A DNA stretch of 64,000 nucleotides from an uncultured Gemmatimonadales bacterium (GTDB lineage: Bacteria > Gemmatimonadota > Gemmatimonadetes > Longimicrobiales > RSA9). The stretch spans positions 448,001 to 512,000 of the forward strand of contig CAWCRS010000008.1 in the NCBI GenBank assembly GCA_963798085.1. Reading direction: 5' to 3'. Position numbers and translations under genes: made by a program. Below, piece by piece: positions 46,918-63,894 of this stretch (position 1 is its first letter; every line of letters begins with the position of its first letter). Under the pieces are notes generated by a model, which searched no databases, was not told the DNA's origin, and was given only the letters and a program-made list of their open reading frames with translations.

Positions 46918-48546
46918 ATGGCGCAGACGCTGCGTTTGCTCAGGGTCCTTTACATCGGGCGCCTCACCATCGCGGTCGGCATCTTCGTGGCCGCGTTGTG
47001 GGCGTGGACGGACGCGCCTGCGGACGTCACGCTGATAGCCACGCTTGCGCTGCTGCTGTCTCTCGCCGTTTCCGGCATTGGTTTCTGGTACACCGATGTG
47101 CTGGGTCGCCGGCCCGGGCGCGACTTCGTCTACTGCCAGGTTCTGTTCGACACGCTGCTCGTCACCGCCATCGTCCACATCACCACGGTCAGCAACGGCC
47201 CGAGCGATTTCTCGGCACTGTACGTCCCGGTCATTGCCACGGCCGCACTGCTGCTGCCCATGCCCGGTGGTCTGCTGGTCGGCGGGCTCGCCAGCATTCT
47301 CTACATCGCGGACATTCTGTGGCTGCAGACCTTCGGCGTGAGCGTCGCGTCGCTGATGCAGGTCGGGCTCTTCGTCGTGATCGCGGGCGTCACCGCGGTG
47401 CTGGGTCACCGCTTGCGGCGAACCGGCACGGCGCTGGGCATGGCGGAGTCCGAGCTGCGCCAGCTGCGCCTGGACACGGGGGACATCCTGGCGGCGATCG
47501 ACACGGGTCTCGTGACCGTGGCCGATGACGGTCGCCTCATGTACATGAATGCCGCCGCCCAGGCGATTCTCGAGCTGCGTCAGGACGACTGGCGGGGCCG
47601 CGCTGTGATCGACGCGCTGGACCGCGCCGCGCCGCAGCTGGGCACCACGATTGCCCGCACGGCGAGAACCGGCATGGCGGTGCGCCGTCTCGAGGTGCGC
47701 GTGCCGCATCCCGAAGGCGATGCCTTCCTCGCGGTACGCACCACGCTGCTGGACCGGCCCCAGCATCCATGGGTGACGGCGGTTATCCAGGACGTGACCG
47801 AACACCGGCAGATCGATGATCTGATCCGGCGTGCCGAGCGGCTGCAGGCCATTGCCGAGCTGGGCGCGTCGCTGGCGCACGAGATCAAGAATCCGCTGGC
47901 CTCCATTCGCAGCAGCATCGAGCAGCTGATGCGCAACCGTCTGGGTCAAGACGATCGCGACACACTGCAGCGCCTCGTGCTCGCGGAATCGGATCGCCTG
48001 AGCCGGCTGCTGGCAGAGTTCATGGAGTTCTCGCGTCTCGAGCTGCGTCGCTGGAAGGTGCTCGACCTGCGCGACATCGCATCGGAAGCGGTGGGCCTCG
48101 CGGCCCAGCATCCGGATACCGGCGCGGGTACGCGCATCGAGCTGGACGCGCCGCTGGATCCGCTCGTCGTCGATGGCGATCAGGACCTGCTGCACCGCGC
48201 TGTGTTCAACCTGGTGCTCAATGGTGTCCAGCACGCCGGTCCCAGCGGTCGCGTGCGCGTTCAGCTGGGCCGCGCCGATACCTTCGAAGTGCCGGCCAGC
48301 GTGCCCATCGAATCACCGGTGCGACTCACGGTCGAGGACTCGGGTCCCGGAATCCGCGAGGAAGACATCGGCCGGCTCTTCGATCCTTTCTTCACCACGC
48401 GCAACGGCGGCAACGGCCTCGGCCTCGCCATGGTGCATCGCGCCATTGAAGCGCATCGCGGCGCCATACTCGTCGACGGCAACGTCGGCCGCGGCGCCCG
48501 CTTCACAGTCTATCTTCCTGCTCACAGCAACGGTCGGAGGAACTGA
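46918..48546 (+). CDS. pilS: PilS-like membrane sensor histidine kinase
   Basis: N-terminal LRVLYIGRL plus about 6 TM helices, PAS-like region, LAHEIKNPL, FDPFFTT, GLGL; precedes a sigma54 activator. The start could be 46882. Confidence 0.8.
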   Translation: MAQTLRLLRVLYIGRLTIAVGIFVAALWAWTDAPADVTLIATLALLLSLAVSGIGFWYTDVLGRRPGRDFVYCQVLFDTLLVTAIVHITTVSNGPSDFSALYVPVIATAALLLPMPGGLLVGGLASILYIADILWLQTFGVSVASLMQVGLFVVIAGVTAVLGHRLRRTGTALGMAESELRQLRLDTGDILAAIDTGLVTVADDGRLMYMNAAAQAILELRQDDWRGRAVIDALDRAAPQLGTTIARTARTGMAVRRLEVRVPHPEGDAFLAVRTTLLDRPQHPWVTAVIQDVTEHRQIDDLIRRAERLQAIAELGASLAHEIKNPLASIRSSIEQLMRNRLGQDDRDTLQRLVLAESDRLSRLLAEFMEFSRLELRRWKVLDLRDIASEAVGLAAQHPDTGAGTRIELDAPLDPLVVDGDQDLLHRAVFNLVLNGVQHAGPSGRVRVQLGRADTFEVPASVPIESPVRLTVEDSGPGIREEDIGRLFDPFFTTRNGGNGLGLAMVHRAIEAHRGAILVDGNVGRGARFTVYLPAHSNGRRN

Positions 48547-48549
48547 GGA

Positions 48550-49929
48550 ATGCCCGTCAAAATCATGATCGTGGACGACGAACAGTCGATCCTCGACACG
48601 CTCGGCATTCTGCTGCGCAGCGAGGGCTACACCACGCACACGTTCCAGAACGGGCGTGAAGCGATGGATCGGCTGGCCGAGATCTCGCCCGACATCGTGC
48701 TCTCCGACATTCGCATGCCCGCGCTCAGCGGCATCGATGTGCTGGAAGCCGTGCACCGCTGGGATCCGGCCGTGCCGGTGATCCTCATGACGGCGCAGGC
48801 ATCACTGCAATCCGCGGTGAAGGCGGTCAACGAAGGCGCGTTCTACTACCTGCAGAAGCCGTTCGTCAACGACGAGCTGGTGGCGCTCTGCGGGCGCGCC
48901 GTGGAGACGCGTCGCCTGAAGACCGAGAACACCGAGCTGAAGAAGGAAATCCGCCGCCGCGAGCAGGGTGATGAGGCGAGGCCCATCGGCAAGAACCGCG
49001 GCTTCCTGGAGATGCTGCGCATGGCGGAAACCGTCGCACCGACCGACTCCACGGTGCTCATCACGGGCGAGAGCGGCACCGGCAAGGAAGTGCTGGCGCG
49101 TTACGTCCATCGTCTGTCGGCGCGCGAGAACGGGCCCTTCGTGTCCATCAACTGCGGCGCACTGCCCGAGAGTCTGCTCGAGTCCGAGCTGTTCGGTCAC
49201 ACGCGCGGCAGCTTCACGGGTGCGATCAAGGACAAGGACGGCCTCATGGTGGCCGCGCGCGGCGGCACCTTCTTCCTCGACGAAGTGGCCGAGATGTCAC
49301 CCGCGCTGCAGGTGAAGTTCCTGCGCGCGCTGCAGGAGCGCGAAGTCGTGCCCGTGGGCGCCACCGAGCCGGTGAAGGTCGATGTGCGTATCATCGCCGC
49401 CACCAATCGCGACCTGGAAAAGGAGATCCGCGCGGGCCATTTCCGCAGCGACCTGTACTATCGACTCAACGTCATCACCCTGCATATTCCGCTGCTGCGG
49501 GAGCGCATGGATGACATTCCGCTGCTGGCCGAGCATTTTCTCATGAAGCTGAACCAGGGTCGCAGCAATGGACATTCGGTGCCGGCGCGTCTGAGCGACG
49601 AGGGCATGGCGGCGCTGCAGCGCTACGACTGGCCGGGCAACGTGCGCGAGCTGGAGAACGCGCTGGAGCGGGCCGCGATTCTGTCGTCCGGCGGCGAAGA
49701 GATCAGCGTCAATGCGCTGCCTCGCCGCATCACTTCGCCGGATCCTGCGCCGCTCGTGTCCGAGCGCGCGCCCACGAATCCCACGCTCGAGCTGGTCGAG
49801 CGCGCGTACATTCTGTGGGTGCTCGAGGCCGAGGGAGGCAACAAGGCAAAGGCTGCCGAAGTGCTGGGCATCGACCCGTCCACACTCTATCGCAAACTCA
49901 ACCGTTACGGGGTCGCGGGTGCGGCATGA
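48550..49929 (+). CDS. pilR: Sigma54-dependent response regulator (PilR/NtrC family)
   Basis: Receiver domain (VDDE, DIRMP), [36 protein letters not shown], Fis-type HTH; pilR label inferred from context. Confidence 0.82.
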
Positions 49930-50774
49930 CCGACGATTTCGAGAACCACTCGCGCATCAGGAGGGACCCTACCTCAATGCGGCTTAGCGTCGTCATGCCC
50001 GTCTACAACGAAGCGCCCACCGTGCAATACTCGATTGCGCGCGTGCGCTCCGTTCCCCTTTCCATCGAACTGGTGTGCATCGACGATGCCTCCACCGATG
50101 GCACACGCGCGGTCCTCGAGCAGCTGCACCAGGACGGTGTGATCGACGTGCTGCTGCTGCAGGAACAGAATCAGGGGAAGGGTGCGGCCGTGCGGCGAGG
50201 CATCCAGGCGGCCACCGGCGATGTGATCGTGATCCAGGACGCTGACCTCGAATACGATCCTTTCGAGCTGCCTCGCCTGCTCGATCCCATTCTCGATGGC
50301 CGCGCGGATGCCGTCCTGGGCAGTCGCTTCCTGGGTGGCGTGCACCGCGTCCTCTACTTCTGGCACCGTCTGGGCAACGGACTGCTGACGCTGCTGTCCA
50401 ACATGCTCACGGACCTGAACGTCACGGACATGGAGACGTGCTACAAGATGGTGCGCGCGGATCTCATGAAGAGTCTGCCGCTGACGGCGGATCGCTTCGG
50501 CATCGAGCCGGAGCTGACCGCACGGCTGGCGCAGTCCCGCGCCCGCATCTACGAAGTGCCCATCAGCTATTCGGGCCGCACCTATGCCGAGGGCAAGAAG
50601 ATCGGCTGGCGTGACGGCGTCGCCGCCTTCTGGCACATCGTGCGCTTCAATCTTTCGGGACCGCGCGCGCCCCTGTACAAGCCGGTACGCAGCCTGACGC
50701 CGCCGCAGCCCGGCGTGATCGCGGACCAGCCACCCGTGGTGCGCAATGCCACGCGAGGCGTGACCGGCCCGTGA
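49926..50774 (+). CDS. GT2 glycosyltransferase, DPM1-like polyprenyl-phosphate sugar synthase
   Basis: [56 protein letters not shown] overlap with the pilR stop (alternative start 49977). Confidence 0.92.
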
Positions 50775-63430: not shown

Positions 63431-63450
63431 TTTCGCCGGTGCTTGATCGT

Positions 63451-63473
63451 GGGGCGGCCCACTGGGCCGCCCC
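63451..63473 (+). terminator. Perfect 10-bp hairpin between the pilin genes
   Basis: GGGGCGGCCC-ACT-GGGCCGCCCC with no U tract. Confidence 0.55.
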
Positions 63474-63498
63474 CGGGTCAAACTAGGCGAATGCTGAG

Positions 63499-63894
63499 GT
63501 GATGATGCCAAGGCGAAGCGGGTTTACTCTGATCGAGATTCTGATCGTGCTCGTGATCATTGCGATCCTGGCAACGATCGGTGTCAACCGATTCTGGGCA
63601 GCGAAGGACCGCAGCCTGTACGCGAGTATTCAGAGCGATCTGAGAAACATGGGCGCAGAACAGGAGATCTATTACGAGAAGAACCTGAGCTACGCCGCGG
63701 CAGTAACGGATCTGGTGGATTTCAGGAGCAGCCAGGGCGTGACGATCAACATCACATACGCGGCAGCCAATGGCTGGGCAGCGAATGCGACACACACGTC
63801 ACTGGGCGGCAAGCAGTGTGGCTATTACACAGGGAACGCGCCAGCGGCGTCGGGCGCACCGGCGACCGTGAACGGCGTGGTCGACTGCAACTGA
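63499..63894 (+). CDS. Second type IV pilin (paralog, possibly minor pilin)
   Basis: PRRSG/FTLIEILIVLVII, SDLRNM, QEIYY, VTDLVDF shared with pilin 1; the start may be 63502 or 63505. Confidence 0.93.
   Translation: MMMPRRSGFTLIEILIVLVIIAILATIGVNRFWAAKDRSLYASIQSDLRNMGAEQEIYYEKNLSYAAAVTDLVDFRSSQGVTINITYAAANGWAANATHTSLGGKQCGYYTGNAPAASGAPATVNGVVDCN

What the first reader, a model, noticed from the sequence alone, without database searches (positions are those of the whole stretch)
46918..63894. Candidate pilin glycosylation island inserted between pilS-pilR and two pilin genes
Seen: nine co-oriented genes, nearly all overlapping or abutting (the first overlaps the pilR stop), fill the 13 kb between pilSR and the pilins. 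They are 2 GT2, 4 GT-C membrane proteins, 2 methyltransferases and 1 AsnB. No Wzx/Wzy, O-antigen-ligase-type PilO/PglL enzyme or nucleotide-sugar synthesis genes were recognised. Established: pilS-pilR-pilA are adjacent in Myxococcus and Geobacter; DPM1/ArnC-type GT2s make polyprenyl-phosphate monosaccharides that GT-C enzymes use outside the cytoplasm; Pseudomonas TfpW is a GT-C that glycosylates pilin. Inference: this is a stepwise, lipid-monosaccharide-dependent pilin glycosylation and tailoring pathway, unlike the usual en-bloc PilO/PglL route. I know of no description of this gene set.
Basis: partly seen in the sequence, partly recalled or inferred. Interest (0 to 1): 0.88.

Follow-up and report, generated by a model that had tools for sequence, protein, structure and literature searches.

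The report
Pilin-linked lipid-sugar glycosylation gene island
In this Gemmatimonadota genome nine co-oriented sugar-handling genes lie between the pilus regulator genes pilS-pilR and two pilin genes, and they likely attach sugars to the pilus subunit by a variant of the little-studied TfpW route known from Pseudomonas.

Summary
The nine genes between pilR and pilA1 are 2 GT2, 4 GT-C, 2 methyltransferases and 1 AsnB. Five junctions overlap by 4 nt. The one apparent gap is the out-of-frame conserved C-terminus of a frameshifted GT-C.

Two of the GT-C proteins (g8, g9) have the TfpW/TMTC build: a multi-helix membrane domain with an invariant DD, followed by C-terminal TPR.

In 120 evenly drawn Gemmatimonadota genomes, 58 carry this GT-C at 82 loci. 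A pilin gene lies within 1 kb at 51 of the 82 loci, and 51 of the 58 genomes have at least one such pair. Sixteen pairs stand away from pilR and GT2a.

The DPM1-like GT2a is a widespread single-copy gene (98 of 121 genomes) and often sits elsewhere. The other five genes (PMT_2-type GT-C, ArnC-like GT2, two methyltransferases, AsnB) are confined to the window's family.

Best reading (0.6): periplasmic pilin O-glycosylation from polyprenyl-phosphate sugars, a new variant of the TfpW kind. The tailoring role of the accessory genes is inferred only.

Weak points: no flippase was found, 28 of 82 GT-C loci are not pilin-linked, and there is no biochemical evidence.

The scan noted the same kind of island in another Gemmatimonadota genome (e1-3365975).

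The parts
46708..48546 (+). pilS sensor histidine kinase. This is the longest ORF; the true start may lie further downstream.
   Evidence: Pfam 6TM_PilS E 5.1e-12, PAS_4, HisKA, HATPase_c E 9.7e-26.
48550..49929 (+). pilR, a sigma-54-dependent response regulator.
   Evidence: Response_reg E 7.3e-29, Sigma54_activat E 3.1e-69, HTH_8 E 8.6e-15.
49926..50774 (+). g1 GT2a: DPM1/AglJ-like GT2 with no transmembrane helix. Predicted polyprenyl-phosphate hexose synthase. Its ATG overlaps the pilR stop (ATGA).
   Evidence: PF00535 E 2.6e-34. TIGR04182 AglJ 111.6 bits, below the cut-off of 325. Best solved relative is Pyrococcus Dol-P-Man synthase 5mlz, E 5.6e-19. Start and overlap.
50771..52717 (+). 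g2: a GT-C-fold membrane glycosyltransferase of no Pfam family. As read in frame it ends early after an apparent 1-base frameshift near 52667.
   Evidence: AF2 model pLDDT 75.6. VIA-align: Pmt1 6p2r_A Z 23.0 (360 aligned, rmsd 4.0), ALG12 Z 22.9, Pmt4 Z 22.5, ArnT Z 22.4; rows 1-20 are all GT-C, row 21 is Z 6.0. Frameshift.
52722..52883 (+). Small ORF in the +1 frame that encodes the conserved C-terminal segment of g2 orthologues. It is probably part of g2 rather than a separate gene.
   Evidence: tblastn found it directly after g2 homologues in 16 loci at E <= 0.01. It is in the same ORF as g2 in 7 of 7 relatives checked.
52885..54576 (+). g3: a PMT_2/PMT-type GT-C glycosyltransferase with an invariant TFDE at residues 53-56.
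   Evidence: PMT_2 at 29 bits, cut-off 26.1. Orthologues hit PMT_2 in 10 of 10 and PMT in 8 of 10. Invariant residues.
54560..55294 (+). g4 MTa: class I SAM-dependent methyltransferase.
   Evidence: Methyltransf_11 E 1.3e-22.
55296..56285 (+). g5 GT2b: ArnC/GtrB-type polyprenyl-phosphate glycosyltransferase with two C-terminal transmembrane helices.
   Evidence: Full-length match to solved ArnC 9hwj, E 2.5e-50, and to GtrB 5ekp, E 1.5e-37. NF007986 188.5 bits, below the cut-off of 529. Hydrophobic C-terminus seen in the translation.
56282..57295 (+). g6 MTb: SAM methyltransferase with an N-terminal Trm112-like zinc-ribbon segment.
   Evidence: Methyltransf_11 E 1.6e-12, Trm112p E 2.6e-4. NF038101 E 1.7e-15, below its cut-off.
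57304..59232 (+). g7: AsnB-type glutamine-dependent amidotransferase. The protein starts MCG, so the N-terminal nucleophile cysteine is present.
   Evidence: Asn_synthase E 2.5e-99, GATase_7 E 3.4e-44. TIGR03108 576.8 bits, below the cut-off of 816.9; TIGR01536 458 bits, above the cut-off of 267. Start.
59229..60872 (+). g8: TfpW/TMTC-like GT-C with a C-terminal TPR domain, paralogue of g9. ATGA overlap with g7.
   Evidence: hhalign against the g9 family: probability 100%, E 2.1e-89. PMT_2 20.8 bits, below the cut-off; TPR hits. Start.
60869..62848 (+). g9: TfpW/TMTC-like GT-C with a C-terminal TPR domain, directly upstream of pilA1. GTGA overlap with g8.
   Evidence: AF2 pLDDT 82.5. Residues 1-422 match Pmt1-Pmt2 6p2r_B at Z 19.0 (349 aligned), AglB Z 18.8, STT3 Z 18.7, ArnT Z 17.1. 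The TPR part matches OGT, PilW and PilF. D33 and D34 are invariant in 14 of 14 orthologues.
62942..62957 (+). Sigma-54-type -24/-12 element (GG ... TTGC) upstream of pilA1.
   Evidence: GGG and TTGC at this spacing are invariant in 8 of 8 genera, in an intergenic alignment with 34% mean column identity. A consensus count over the whole window was not above chance.
63026..63430 (+). pilA1: type IVa major-pilin-like gene. Prepilin motif G|FTLIE and two C-terminal cysteines.
   Evidence: N_methyl E 1.6e-9. NF041775 PilA_Myxo E 2.3e-14, below its cut-off. Translation.
63451..63473 (.). GC-rich inverted repeat after pilA1, possibly a terminator or attenuator. It is not followed by a T-run.
   Evidence: Read directly from the sequence. 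Not tested further.
63499..63894 (+). pilA2: a second pilin gene, 51% identical to PilA1.
   Evidence: N_methyl E 3.2e-9. Translation, identity.

Best explanation
The nine genes between pilR and pilA1 are predicted to form a periplasmic pilin O-glycosylation pathway of the TfpW type, fed by polyprenyl-phosphate monosaccharides.

Shown directly:
- Gene order and the overlaps between genes.
- The GT2 and GT-C folds and families.
- The TPR domains and the invariant DD.
- A conserved sigma-54 element upstream of pilA1.
- The phylum-wide adjacency of this GT-C family to pilin genes.

Inferred mechanism:
1. At the cytoplasmic face, GT2a (DPM1-like) and GT2b (ArnC/GtrB-like) would each load a sugar onto undecaprenyl phosphate.
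2. The AsnB-type amidotransferase and the two SAM methyltransferases need ATP, glutamine or SAM. They would therefore act in the cytoplasm, on the nucleotide sugar or the lipid-linked sugar. One likely reaction is amidation of a uronic acid, with methylation by the two methyltransferases.
3. An unidentified flippase would move the donors across the membrane.
4. In the periplasm, g8 and g9 would hold the membrane-anchored pilin with their TPR domains and transfer sugar to Ser/Thr.
5. The two GT-C enzymes without TPR (g2, g3) would add or extend further sugars.
6. The genes are translationally coupled to pilR, so they would be made together with the regulators that switch on pilA1.
For: Architecture of g8 and g9:
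- They have a multi-helix GT-C domain followed by C-terminal TPR, with an invariant DD after the first helix.
- This matches the description of TfpW: 646 aa, 11 TM, periplasmic TPR, DDX in PL1, encoded next to pilA, required for pilin arabinosylation (passages of the preprint).
- g9 carries the FAVHPxHTE motif that the TMTC paper prints for human TMTC3.

Synteny:
- In 14 of 15 loci from relatives, the GT-C sits directly upstream of pilA.
- Of the 70 loci from named Gemmatimonadota MAGs, 46 have at least 1 kb downstream. Of those 46, 38 have a pilin within 1 kb and 42 within 4 kb.

Census of all 82 g9-like loci in the 58 positive genomes, out of 120 evenly drawn:
- A pilin lies within 1 kb at 51 loci and within 3 kb at 54.
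- 51 of 58 genomes have at least one such pair.
- 16 pilin-adjacent loci have neither pilR nor GT2a within 5 kb. These are pairs that recur away from the pilSR locus.

Donor synthases:
- GT2a's best solved relative is Dol-P-Man synthase (E 5.6e-19).
- GT2b matches ArnC over its full length (E 2.5e-50).

Accessory genes:
- Outside G000, one search found 10 close MTb matches (61% identity or more) among the 40 relatives. Eight of them lie in the pil island.

Operon structure and regulation:
- There are five 4-nt overlaps running from pilR to g9.
- The sigma-54 element before pilA1 is invariant in 8 of 8 genera.
- g8 and g9 are the only matches to this family in the window's genome.
Against: - There are no biochemical data, and pilin modification is not shown.
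- 28 of 82 GT-C loci have no pilin within 3 kb. Six of these have under 500 nt of flank on one side. A relaxed motif scan found no pilin within 3 kb at any of them; the only real pilins it found were the two already counted 3.7 kb away at L158.
- On a tree, pilin-linked and unlinked members are interspersed: 21 label changes against 27.4 in shuffles.
- GT2a is a mostly single-copy gene in 98 of 121 genomes. It was unlinked to pil genes in 23 of the 40 loci that I picked across families, not at random.
- Some relatives keep an orthologous pilin with no GT at all (G011). Others have GT2a but no TMTC-like membrane domain anywhere in the genome (G013, G027, G029, G037).
- An alignment of 21 pilins shows no Ser/Thr pattern that separates pilins with a neighbouring GT-C from those without.
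- No flippase gene lies in the island, and no GtrA-family match was found in the 90%-complete genome.
- g2 is frameshifted as assembled.
- Sequence homology to TfpW itself could not be tested.
- Pfam DUF1736 is not matched by g9, and by g8 only at E 0.05.
Confidence: 0.6

Rival explanations
1. The GT-C/TPR enzymes are general periplasmic protein O-glycosyltransferases, like PMT in actinobacteria or TMTC in animals. Pilin would be one substrate among many, or none, and the position after pilR would reflect co-regulation rather than substrate specificity.
For: - 28 of 82 family loci lie away from any pilin, and they are interspersed with pilin-linked ones on the tree.
- GT2a is widespread and often unlinked to pil genes.
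- JGI names some homologues 'protein O-mannosyl-transferase'.
- TPR domains are generic protein binders.
Against: - A pilin within 1 kb at 51 of 82 loci is far above what a few pilin genes per 3-4 Mb genome would give by chance.
- 16 GT-C and pilin pairs recur at loci without pilR or GT2a. Co-regulation with pilSR does not explain these.
- Tandem expansion of the GT-C occurs next to pilins.
Confidence: 0.17
2. At least the accessory block (g3 PMT_2-type GT-C, GT2b ArnC-like, two methyltransferases, AsnB, perhaps g2) modifies an envelope glycan or lipid rather than pilin. Candidates are lipid A/LPS by an Arn-like route, or an exopolysaccharide. It would be expressed with pili because surface motility needs both.
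For: - GT2b matches ArnC over its full length (E 2.5e-50), and g3 is in the ArnT/PMT_2 family.
- AsnB is nearest to the XrtA/PEP-CTERM EPS amidotransferase model TIGR03108 (577 bits).
- The block is missing from most of the phylum.
- It occurs as a separate second copy in G001:C190, and as an MTb plus g3 pair in G023:C33 with no pilin seen nearby.
Against: - In the window's family the block is always nested between GT2a/g2 and g8/g9 in one overlapping operon.
- 8 of the 10 close MTb matches outside G000 lie in the pil island.
- GT2b and AsnB both score below the equivalog cut-offs (188.5 against 529; 577 against 817).
- No ArnA, ArnB or ArnD-type genes are in the island.
Confidence: 0.18
3. 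g8 and g9 are non-enzymatic pilus assembly factors, that is TPR proteins like PilF/PilW/Tgl fused to a membrane anchor.
For: - The TPR part aligns to PilW 2vq2 (Z 18.3) and PilF 2fi7 (Z 17.5).
- JGI names some homologues 'PilF'.
Against: - Unrelated TPR proteins score the same (BBS4 Z 19.2, MamA Z 18.1).
- The membrane domain has a GT-C fold with invariant DD, H, E, K and R residues across 14 genera. That points to selection on catalysis.
- A donor synthase gene is often adjacent.
Confidence: 0.03

Closest known systems
TfpW, the pilin D-arabinofuranosyltransferase of Pseudomonas aeruginosa group IV strains (Pa5196/PA7). Source: bioRxiv 10.1101/2020.04.19.049825, passages read.
   Same: - A GT-C membrane enzyme of about 650 aa with a C-terminal periplasmic TPR domain.
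- A DD(X) motif in the first periplasmic loop.
- Encoded next to the major pilin gene.
- Uses a polyprenyl-phosphate monosaccharide donor rather than an en-bloc O-antigen unit.
- g8 and g9 carry a Y-x6-P-x8-P stretch at the place of TfpW's YX6PFX7P motif, without the F.
   Different: - Here the GT-C lies upstream of pilA, inside the pilSR operon, and often in 2-4 tandem copies.
- The linked donor synthase is a DPM1-like GT2 (so probably a hexose), not the DprE1/E2 arabinose pathway.
- There is no TfpX.
- The window adds two further GT-C enzymes, a second GT2, two methyltransferases and an amidotransferase.
- Sequence homology to TfpW was not tested, because no TfpW sequence could be reached with the tools.
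- The Y-x6-P-x8-P stretch is kept at the homologous place in 13 of 14 close orthologues, but in only 14 of 70 phylum-wide hits.
Eukaryotic TMTC1-4 protein O-mannosyltransferases (GT-C/PMT clan). Source: PMC7801869, passages read.
   Same: - 11-TM GT-C domain followed by C-terminal TPR.
- Donor made by a DPM1-type GT2.
- The FAVHPxHTE motif is shared with the human TMTC3 stretch printed in the paper.
- An Atlas feature search of the g9 membrane part lists a eukaryotic DUF1736 cluster at score 0.94.
   Different: - Pfam TMTC_DUF1736 is not matched by g9, and by g8 only at E 0.05 (14 bits, cut-off 27).
- The acceptor here would be a bacterial pilin rather than cadherins.
Three-component periplasmic glycosylation systems (GtrA/GtrB/GtrC, ArnC/ArnEF/ArnT). 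Source: PMC11127046, passages read. The Mann and Whitfield 2016 review is cited there; I did not read it.
   Same: A GT2 charges polyprenyl phosphate, and a GT-C transfers the single sugar outside the cytoplasm. GT2b is a full-length ArnC/GtrB relative.
   Different: - No flippase gene is in the island, and no GtrA family was found in the genome.
- The predicted acceptor is a protein.
- There are four GT-C enzymes and two GT2 enzymes in one operon, plus cytoplasmic tailoring enzymes.
TfpO/PilO, PglL, PglS and TfpM O-oligosaccharyltransferases (the en-bloc route). These names and their Wzy_C membership are recalled, apart from the TfpO and PglL mentions.
   Same: They modify pilins, and some are encoded next to pilA.
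   Different: They transfer preassembled Und-PP-linked glycans and belong to the Wzy_C/O-antigen-ligase family. None of the nine proteins here hits that family in Pfam at E <= 0.01.

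Membership tests
GT-C glycosyltransferase superfamily (g2, g3, g8, g9) | Multi-spanning membrane domain with the GT-C fold. | tested here: met
   - g9 model residues 1-422: Pmt1-Pmt2 Z 19.0, AglB Z 18.8, STT3 Z 18.7, ArnT Z 17.1.
- g2: 20 GT-C enzymes at Z 11-23, then Z 6.
- g3: PMT_2 above its cut-off, and in 10 of 10 orthologues.
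- g8: hhalign probability 100% to the g9 family.
GT-C glycosyltransferase superfamily (g2, g3, g8, g9) | Conserved acidic motif (DxD, DD or DE) in the first extracytoplasmic loop. | tested here: met
   - g9: D33 and D34 invariant in 14 of 14.
- g8: YDD at the aligned place.
- g3: TFDE 53-56 invariant in 10 of 10.
- g2: invariant D139 after the long first helices. Its loop assignment comes from the model only.
- Phylum census: 60 of 70 hits carry the DD.
TfpW-type pilin glycosyltransferase | GT-C domain plus C-terminal periplasmic TPR domain. | tested here: met
   The g9 profile matches the OGT TPR domain at E 2e-27 and consensus TPR proteins over positions 410-580. The model shows TPR helices at 409-610.
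TfpW-type pilin glycosylltransferase | Encoded next to the major pilin gene. | tested here: met
   g9 ends 177 nt before pilA1. The phylum census finds a pilin within 1 kb at 51 of 82 loci.
TfpW-type pilin glycosyltransferase | Detectable sequence homology to TfpW (AAM52060). | not testable with these tools
   No TfpW sequence was reachable.
TfpW-type pilin glycosyltransferase | Proline-rich YX6PFX7P motif in periplasmic loop 4. | tested here: inconclusive
   g8 and g9 have Y-x6-P-x8-P without the F. It is kept at the homologous place in 13 of 14 close orthologues, but in only 14 of 70 phylum-wide hits.
TfpW-type pilin glycosyltransferase | Required for pilin glycosylation. | not testable with these tools
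   This needs genetics and mass spectrometry.
TMTC / Pfam TMTC_DUF1736 | Match to PF08409 above the gathering score. | tested here: not met
   g9 has no hit at E <= 10. g8 scores E 0.05 and 14 bits against a cut-off of 27.
TMTC / Pfam TMTC_DUF1736 | FAVHPxHTE-type motif in the third membrane segment, and C-terminal TPR. | tested here: met
   F126-E134 are invariant or nearly so in 14 of 14. The human TMTC3 stretch is printed in PMC7801869.
Three-component periplasmic glycosylation system | GT2 polyprenyl-phosphate glycosyltransferase. | tested here: met
   GT2b matches ArnC at E 2.5e-50 over its full length and GtrB at E 1.5e-37. GT2a matches Dol-P-Man synthase at E 5.6e-19.
Three-component periplasmic glycosylation system | Dedicated flippase (GtrA-like or ArnE/F-like). 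| tested here: not met
   All ORFs of the island are otherwise assigned. PF04138 found no match in the own genome, which is 90% complete; the control search hit 8 of 14 genomes. The ArnE/F (EamA/SMR) type was not searched.
Arn lipid A aminoarabinose pathway | ArnC equivalog score, and ArnA/B/D partners. | tested here: not met
   NF007986 scores 188.5 bits against a cut-off of 529. No formyltransferase, aminotransferase or deformylase family appears among the nine genes. This was not searched genome-wide.
PilO/TfpO/PglL O-oligosaccharyltransferases | Wzy_C / O-antigen ligase domain. | tested here: not met
   No such Pfam hit for any of the nine proteins at E <= 0.01.

The most novel reading that the evidence does not exclude
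Gemmatimonadota build a multi-sugar, methylated and amidated glycan on their type IV pilin entirely by stepwise periplasmic GT-C transfers from two different undecaprenyl-phosphate monosaccharides. TMTC-like TPR enzymes act as pilin-specific initiators and PMT_2-type enzymes as extenders. This would be a bacterial counterpart, and possibly an evolutionary relative, of the eukaryotic ER TMTC O-mannosylation route, and it would run without any GtrA-type flippase.
Probability: 0.3. Interest if true: 0.8.

Novelty: new variant of a known kind. Interest (0 to 1): 0.62.

Why it matters
**A poorly understood route.** Pilin glycosylation through single lipid-linked sugars is known from one system, TfpW in a few Pseudomonadota. 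Its flippase, its polymerising step and its acceptor recognition are still unresolved there.

**What this window adds.**
- The same enzyme architecture is a phylum-wide, pilin-linked feature of Gemmatimonadota.
- It is paired with a DPM1-type donor synthase.
- In one family it is expanded into a nine-gene operon with tailoring enzymes.

**What that offers for experiments.**
- A second, deeply diverged set of natural variants, from minimal two-gene forms to nine-gene forms. These can be used to work out how a TPR-bearing GT-C picks a pilin.
- A bacterial model for TMTC-type enzymes.
- Candidate tools for site-specific protein glycoengineering.

**Possible function.** Pilus glycans protect Pseudomonas from pilus-specific phages (abstract of bioRxiv 10.1101/150227, seen in the listing). 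The variable gene content here may therefore reflect phage pressure in soil.

Tried and rejected
**Complex prediction.** Complex prediction (g9 with PilA1) was never run. The queue was full, so there is no result either way.

**Reads.**
- The look-up of sequencing runs listed no RNA holder, and only one soil DNA run with a 0.15 share of words.
- Read laying gave no contig across the g2 frameshift site. Whether the extra base is real stays open, and expression is untested.

**Structure and profile searches.**
- Foldseek of the whole g9 model against the PDB returned only TPR proteins. The GT-C fold appeared only with VIA-align wide.
- Profile searches of the g2 and g3 families against PDB sequences found nothing.
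- The g9 profile found only TPR chains.
- Single-sequence hhalign of g2 and g3 against the g9 family was not significant. I treat them as different GT-C families.

**Promoter scan.** The count of the sigma-54 consensus over the window was at chance level: 29 matches against 32.7 expected. The first candidate at 62863 was dropped in favour of the site at 62942, which the alignment shows to be conserved.

**Pilin features.** I compared Ser/Thr content and positions between pilins with and without a neighbouring GT-C. No pattern appeared in 21 sequences.

**Tree.** I looked for a distinct pilin-linked clade and found none.

**Literature.** Searches found no paper on pilin glycosylation in Gemmatimonadota. 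bioRxiv supplements were not seen.

**GC3-based ORF picking.** My own heuristic chose an antisense ORF at 60086-62317 over g8/g9. I rejected it on homology and model confidence.

Full report
**1. What is in the window**

The region is the start of a large type IV pilus locus in a 67% G+C genome.

pilS (46708-48546) and pilR (48550-49929) carry the expected domains. Nine genes follow on the same strand, then two pilin genes: pilA1 (63026-63430) and pilA2 (63499-63894).

Downstream of the window, in L001, lie a second HAMP/HisKA kinase, a second sigma-54 regulator, a gene with a prepilin motif, and pilM, pilN, pilO and the secretin pilQ. Upstream of pilS the genes are unrelated to pili: peptidases, a Mur ligase, an AAA ATPase.

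Titles of the closest public records place the organism in Gemmatimonadota, near Longimicrobiales.

**2. The nine genes**

| Gene | Coordinates | Assignment | Evidence |
|---|---|---|---|
| g1 GT2a | 49926-50774 | Family-2 glycosyltransferase, no membrane helix | Best solved relative: archaeal dolichol-phosphate mannose synthase 5mlz, E 5.6e-19 |
| g2 | 50771-52717 | GT-C fold, no Pfam family | Model aligns to 20 GT-C enzymes (Pmt1 Z 23.0, ALG12 22.9, Pmt4 22.5, ArnT 22.4); next match Z 6 |
| g3 | 52885-54576 | PMT_2/PMT-type GT-C, invariant TFDE | |
| g4, g6 | 54560-55294, 56282-57295 | SAM methyltransferases; g6 has a Trm112-like N-terminus | |
| g5 GT2b | 55296-56285 | ArnC/GtrB-type, two C-terminal membrane helices | Full-length match to solved ArnC, E 2.5e-50 |
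| g7 | 57304-59232 | AsnB-type amidotransferase, begins MCG | Nearest to, but below the cut-off of, the PEP-CTERM EPS amidotransferase model |
| g8 | 59229-60872 | GT-C plus C-terminal TPR; paralogue of g9 | hhalign E 2e-89 |
| g9 | 60869-62848 | GT-C plus C-terminal TPR | pLDDT 82.5; residues 1-422 match Pmt1-Pmt2 at Z 19.0, then AglB, STT3, Pmt4, ArnT; about six TPR pairs follow |

Fourteen orthologues of g9 from as many genera share an invariant DD right after the first helix, and an FAVHPxHxExVA block.

**3. Operon structure**

- The likely starts give 4-nt overlaps at pilR/GT2a, GT2a/g2, g5/g6, g7/g8 and g8/g9.
- g3/g4 overlap by 17 nt.
- Gaps of 1 and 8 nt occur at g4/g5 and g6/g7.
- The only larger gap (g2/g3, 167 nt) is not empty. 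In the +1 frame it encodes the conserved last ~70 residues of g2. These are in frame with g2 in 7 of 7 relatives checked.
- As assembled, g2 therefore carries one extra base near 52667. Public contigs did not cover the site, so I cannot tell an assembly error from a real mutation.
- pilA1 is separated from g9 by 177 nt. Within that spacer a GG-N10-GC element with TTGC (62942-62957) is invariant in 8 of 8 genera, in an otherwise poorly conserved region. This fits a PilR/sigma-54 promoter.

**4. Is the link to pilins real?**

I made three tests with progressively less selection bias.

*(a) Forty relatives.* g9 homologues occur in 20 of 41 genomes, counting the window's own. I fetched 15 loci around the best hits. 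In 14 of them the GT-C lies directly upstream of a pilA1-like gene.
- Forms range from pilS-pilR-GT2a-GT-C-pilA-pilA (L013) to the full nine-gene order (L002, L003, L006, L007).
- Some arrays have up to four tandem g8/g9-like genes (L004).

*(b) Scan of species-representative genomes with the g9 profile.* It found 594 relatives. The best 80 (70 loci) are all from Gemmatimonadota of two orders.
- Of 46 loci with at least 1 kb downstream, 38 have a pilin within 1 kb and 42 within 4 kb.
- Of 59 loci with enough upstream sequence, 40 have GT2a.
- Of 48 loci with enough upstream sequence, 34 have pilR.

*(c) Evenly drawn sample of 120 genomes of the phylum, at least 90% complete.* Counts below include the window's genome.
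- GT2a occurs in 98 of 121 genomes.
- A PilA1-like pilin occurs in 101 of 121.
- The g9 family occurs in 59 of 121.

I then fetched every one of the 82 distinct g9-like loci in the 58 other positive genomes.
- A pilin gene lies within 1 kb at 51 loci and within 3 kb at 54.
- 51 of 58 genomes have at least one such pair.
- Sixteen pilin-adjacent loci have neither pilR nor GT2a within 5 kb, so the GT-C and pilin pair recurs on its own.

With a handful of pilin genes per 3-4 Mb genome, chance adjacency would be well under one locus in a hundred. Related genomes are not independent, so I give no p-value.

**5. Results that cut the other way**

- Twenty-eight of the 82 loci have no pilin within 3 kb. 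Six of them have very short flanks. A relaxed motif scan found no pilin within 3 kb at any of them; the only real pilins it found were the two already counted 3.7 kb away at L158.
- On a tree of 116 sequences the unlinked members are scattered among the linked ones.
- GT2a is not a pilus gene as such. I picked 40 GT2a loci across families from the 104 matches, not at random. Seventeen are pil-linked and 23 stand alone.
- G011 keeps an orthologous pilin between pilR and pilS2 with no glycosyltransferase.
- G013 has pilR-GT2a-pilA with no TMTC-like membrane domain anywhere in the genome.
- G027 has GT2a, then a 61-residue remnant of the GT-C N-terminus, then pilA.
- Pilins with and without a neighbouring GT-C do not differ in any Ser/Thr pattern that I could see.
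- No flippase gene is in the island, and no GtrA family member was found in the genome.

**6. The accessory block**

g3 to g7, and usually g2, occur together only in the window's family.
- Outside G000, one search found 10 close MTb matches (61% identity or more) among the 40 relatives. Eight of them lie in the pil island.
- One lies with a g3-like gene elsewhere (G023:C33).
- One lies in a second, partial copy of the block on a 7.6-kb contig of the same-genus genome (G001:C190).
- g2-like GT-C genes also turn up beside pilS or pilA in other orders, sometimes on the opposite strand.

The block therefore looks like a module recruited into the pilin operon. Whether its product ends up on pilin is inference.

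**7. Mechanism proposed**

Shown here: the families, folds, conserved catalytic-type residues, operon structure, promoter element and pilin adjacency.

Inferred:
1. GT2a and GT2b make two undecaprenyl-phosphate sugars.
2. AsnB and the methyltransferases are cytoplasmic enzymes that depend on ATP, glutamine or SAM. They would modify the sugar before it is flipped, as ArnD does on the lipid-linked sugar in the Arn pathway (recalled).
3. An unknown flippase exports the donors.
4. g8 and g9 bind the membrane-anchored pilin through their TPR domains and O-glycosylate it.
5. g2 and g3 add further sugars.

**8. Comparison with known systems**

- **TfpW of P. aeruginosa** is closest in architecture, genomic position and donor type. 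Membership by sequence could not be tested.
- **TMTC.** The family shares a printed motif with human TMTC3, but it fails the Pfam DUF1736 test.
- **Three-component Gtr/Arn systems.** It resembles them but lacks the flippase.
- **PilO/PglL.** It is not of this type.
- **Literature.** I found no paper on this in Gemmatimonadota.
- **Earlier notes of this scan.** One describes the same kind of island in another Gemmatimonadota genome (e1-3365975). Another describes a pilA-linked TMTC-like GT-C in cable bacteria (e1-2604261). I saw both after forming my reading.

**9. Verdict**

The feature is real and well conserved, and it is most likely a new variant of TfpW-type pilin glycosylation. My confidence is 0.6 for the core (GT-C/TPR acting on pilin with a GT2-made lipid-sugar donor) and lower for the tailoring role of the five accessory genes.

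Noticed in passing
window 52660-52883: g2 has an apparent 1-base insertion near 52667. Its conserved C-terminal ~70 residues now read in the +1 frame, as a 53-codon ORF at 52722-52883 that ends 1 nt before g3. This could be an assembly indel or a real truncation.
   Followed up: partly
L001 2056-13663 (G000:C8:512056-523663, just beyond the window): The pilus locus continues with a second kinase (HAMP, HisKA), a second sigma-54 regulator (a pilS2/pilR2-like pair), a gene with a prepilin motif, and pilM, pilN, pilO and secretin pilQ. The pilS2/pilR2 pair follows the pilins in most relatives as well.
   Followed up: partly
L003 (G010:C34:285690-305689): The orthologous nine-gene island is broken into several frames in g2, g3, g5, g8 and pilA2. 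The pattern looks like assembly indels rather than decay, because the pieces stay 51-78% identical to the window's proteins, apart from three fragments of 25-27 residues at 48-59%.
   Followed up: no
L089 4157-4342 (G027:C1): A 61-residue remnant of the g9-type N-terminus lies between GT2a and pilA, in a complete genome that has no other membrane domain of this family. This looks like a recent loss of the GT-C.
   Followed up: partly
L099 (G001:C190, 7.6-kb contig, same genus as the window): A second, diverged copy of the accessory block: g2 51%, a GT2 32%, g3 47%, MTa 33%, GT2b 77%, MTb 61%, AsnB 66%. The contig ends prevent seeing whether a pilin follows. It could be a paralogous island or a second strain in the bin.
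   Followed up: no
L139 4566-10010 (G028:C3): Seven tandem pilin-like genes lie directly upstream of the GT2a orthologue, in a genome without any g9-type GT-C.
   Followed up: no
L106, L152, L156, L159, L161, L174: In several Gemmatimonadales genomes the GT-C genes sit next to pilA but on the opposite strand, in divergent orientation. The pairing does not depend on co-transcription.
   Followed up: no
window 60086-62317 (- strand): A 743-codon antisense ORF with high GC3 overlaps g8/g9. It is an artefact of the high G+C content, and it misled a simple GC3-based gene picker.
   Followed up: yes
window 43280-46489 (- strand): A 1069-residue protein with PD40 beta-propeller repeats and a peptidase-MA-like N-terminal region lies directly upstream of pilS on the opposite strand. 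No link to the island was seen.
   Followed up: no
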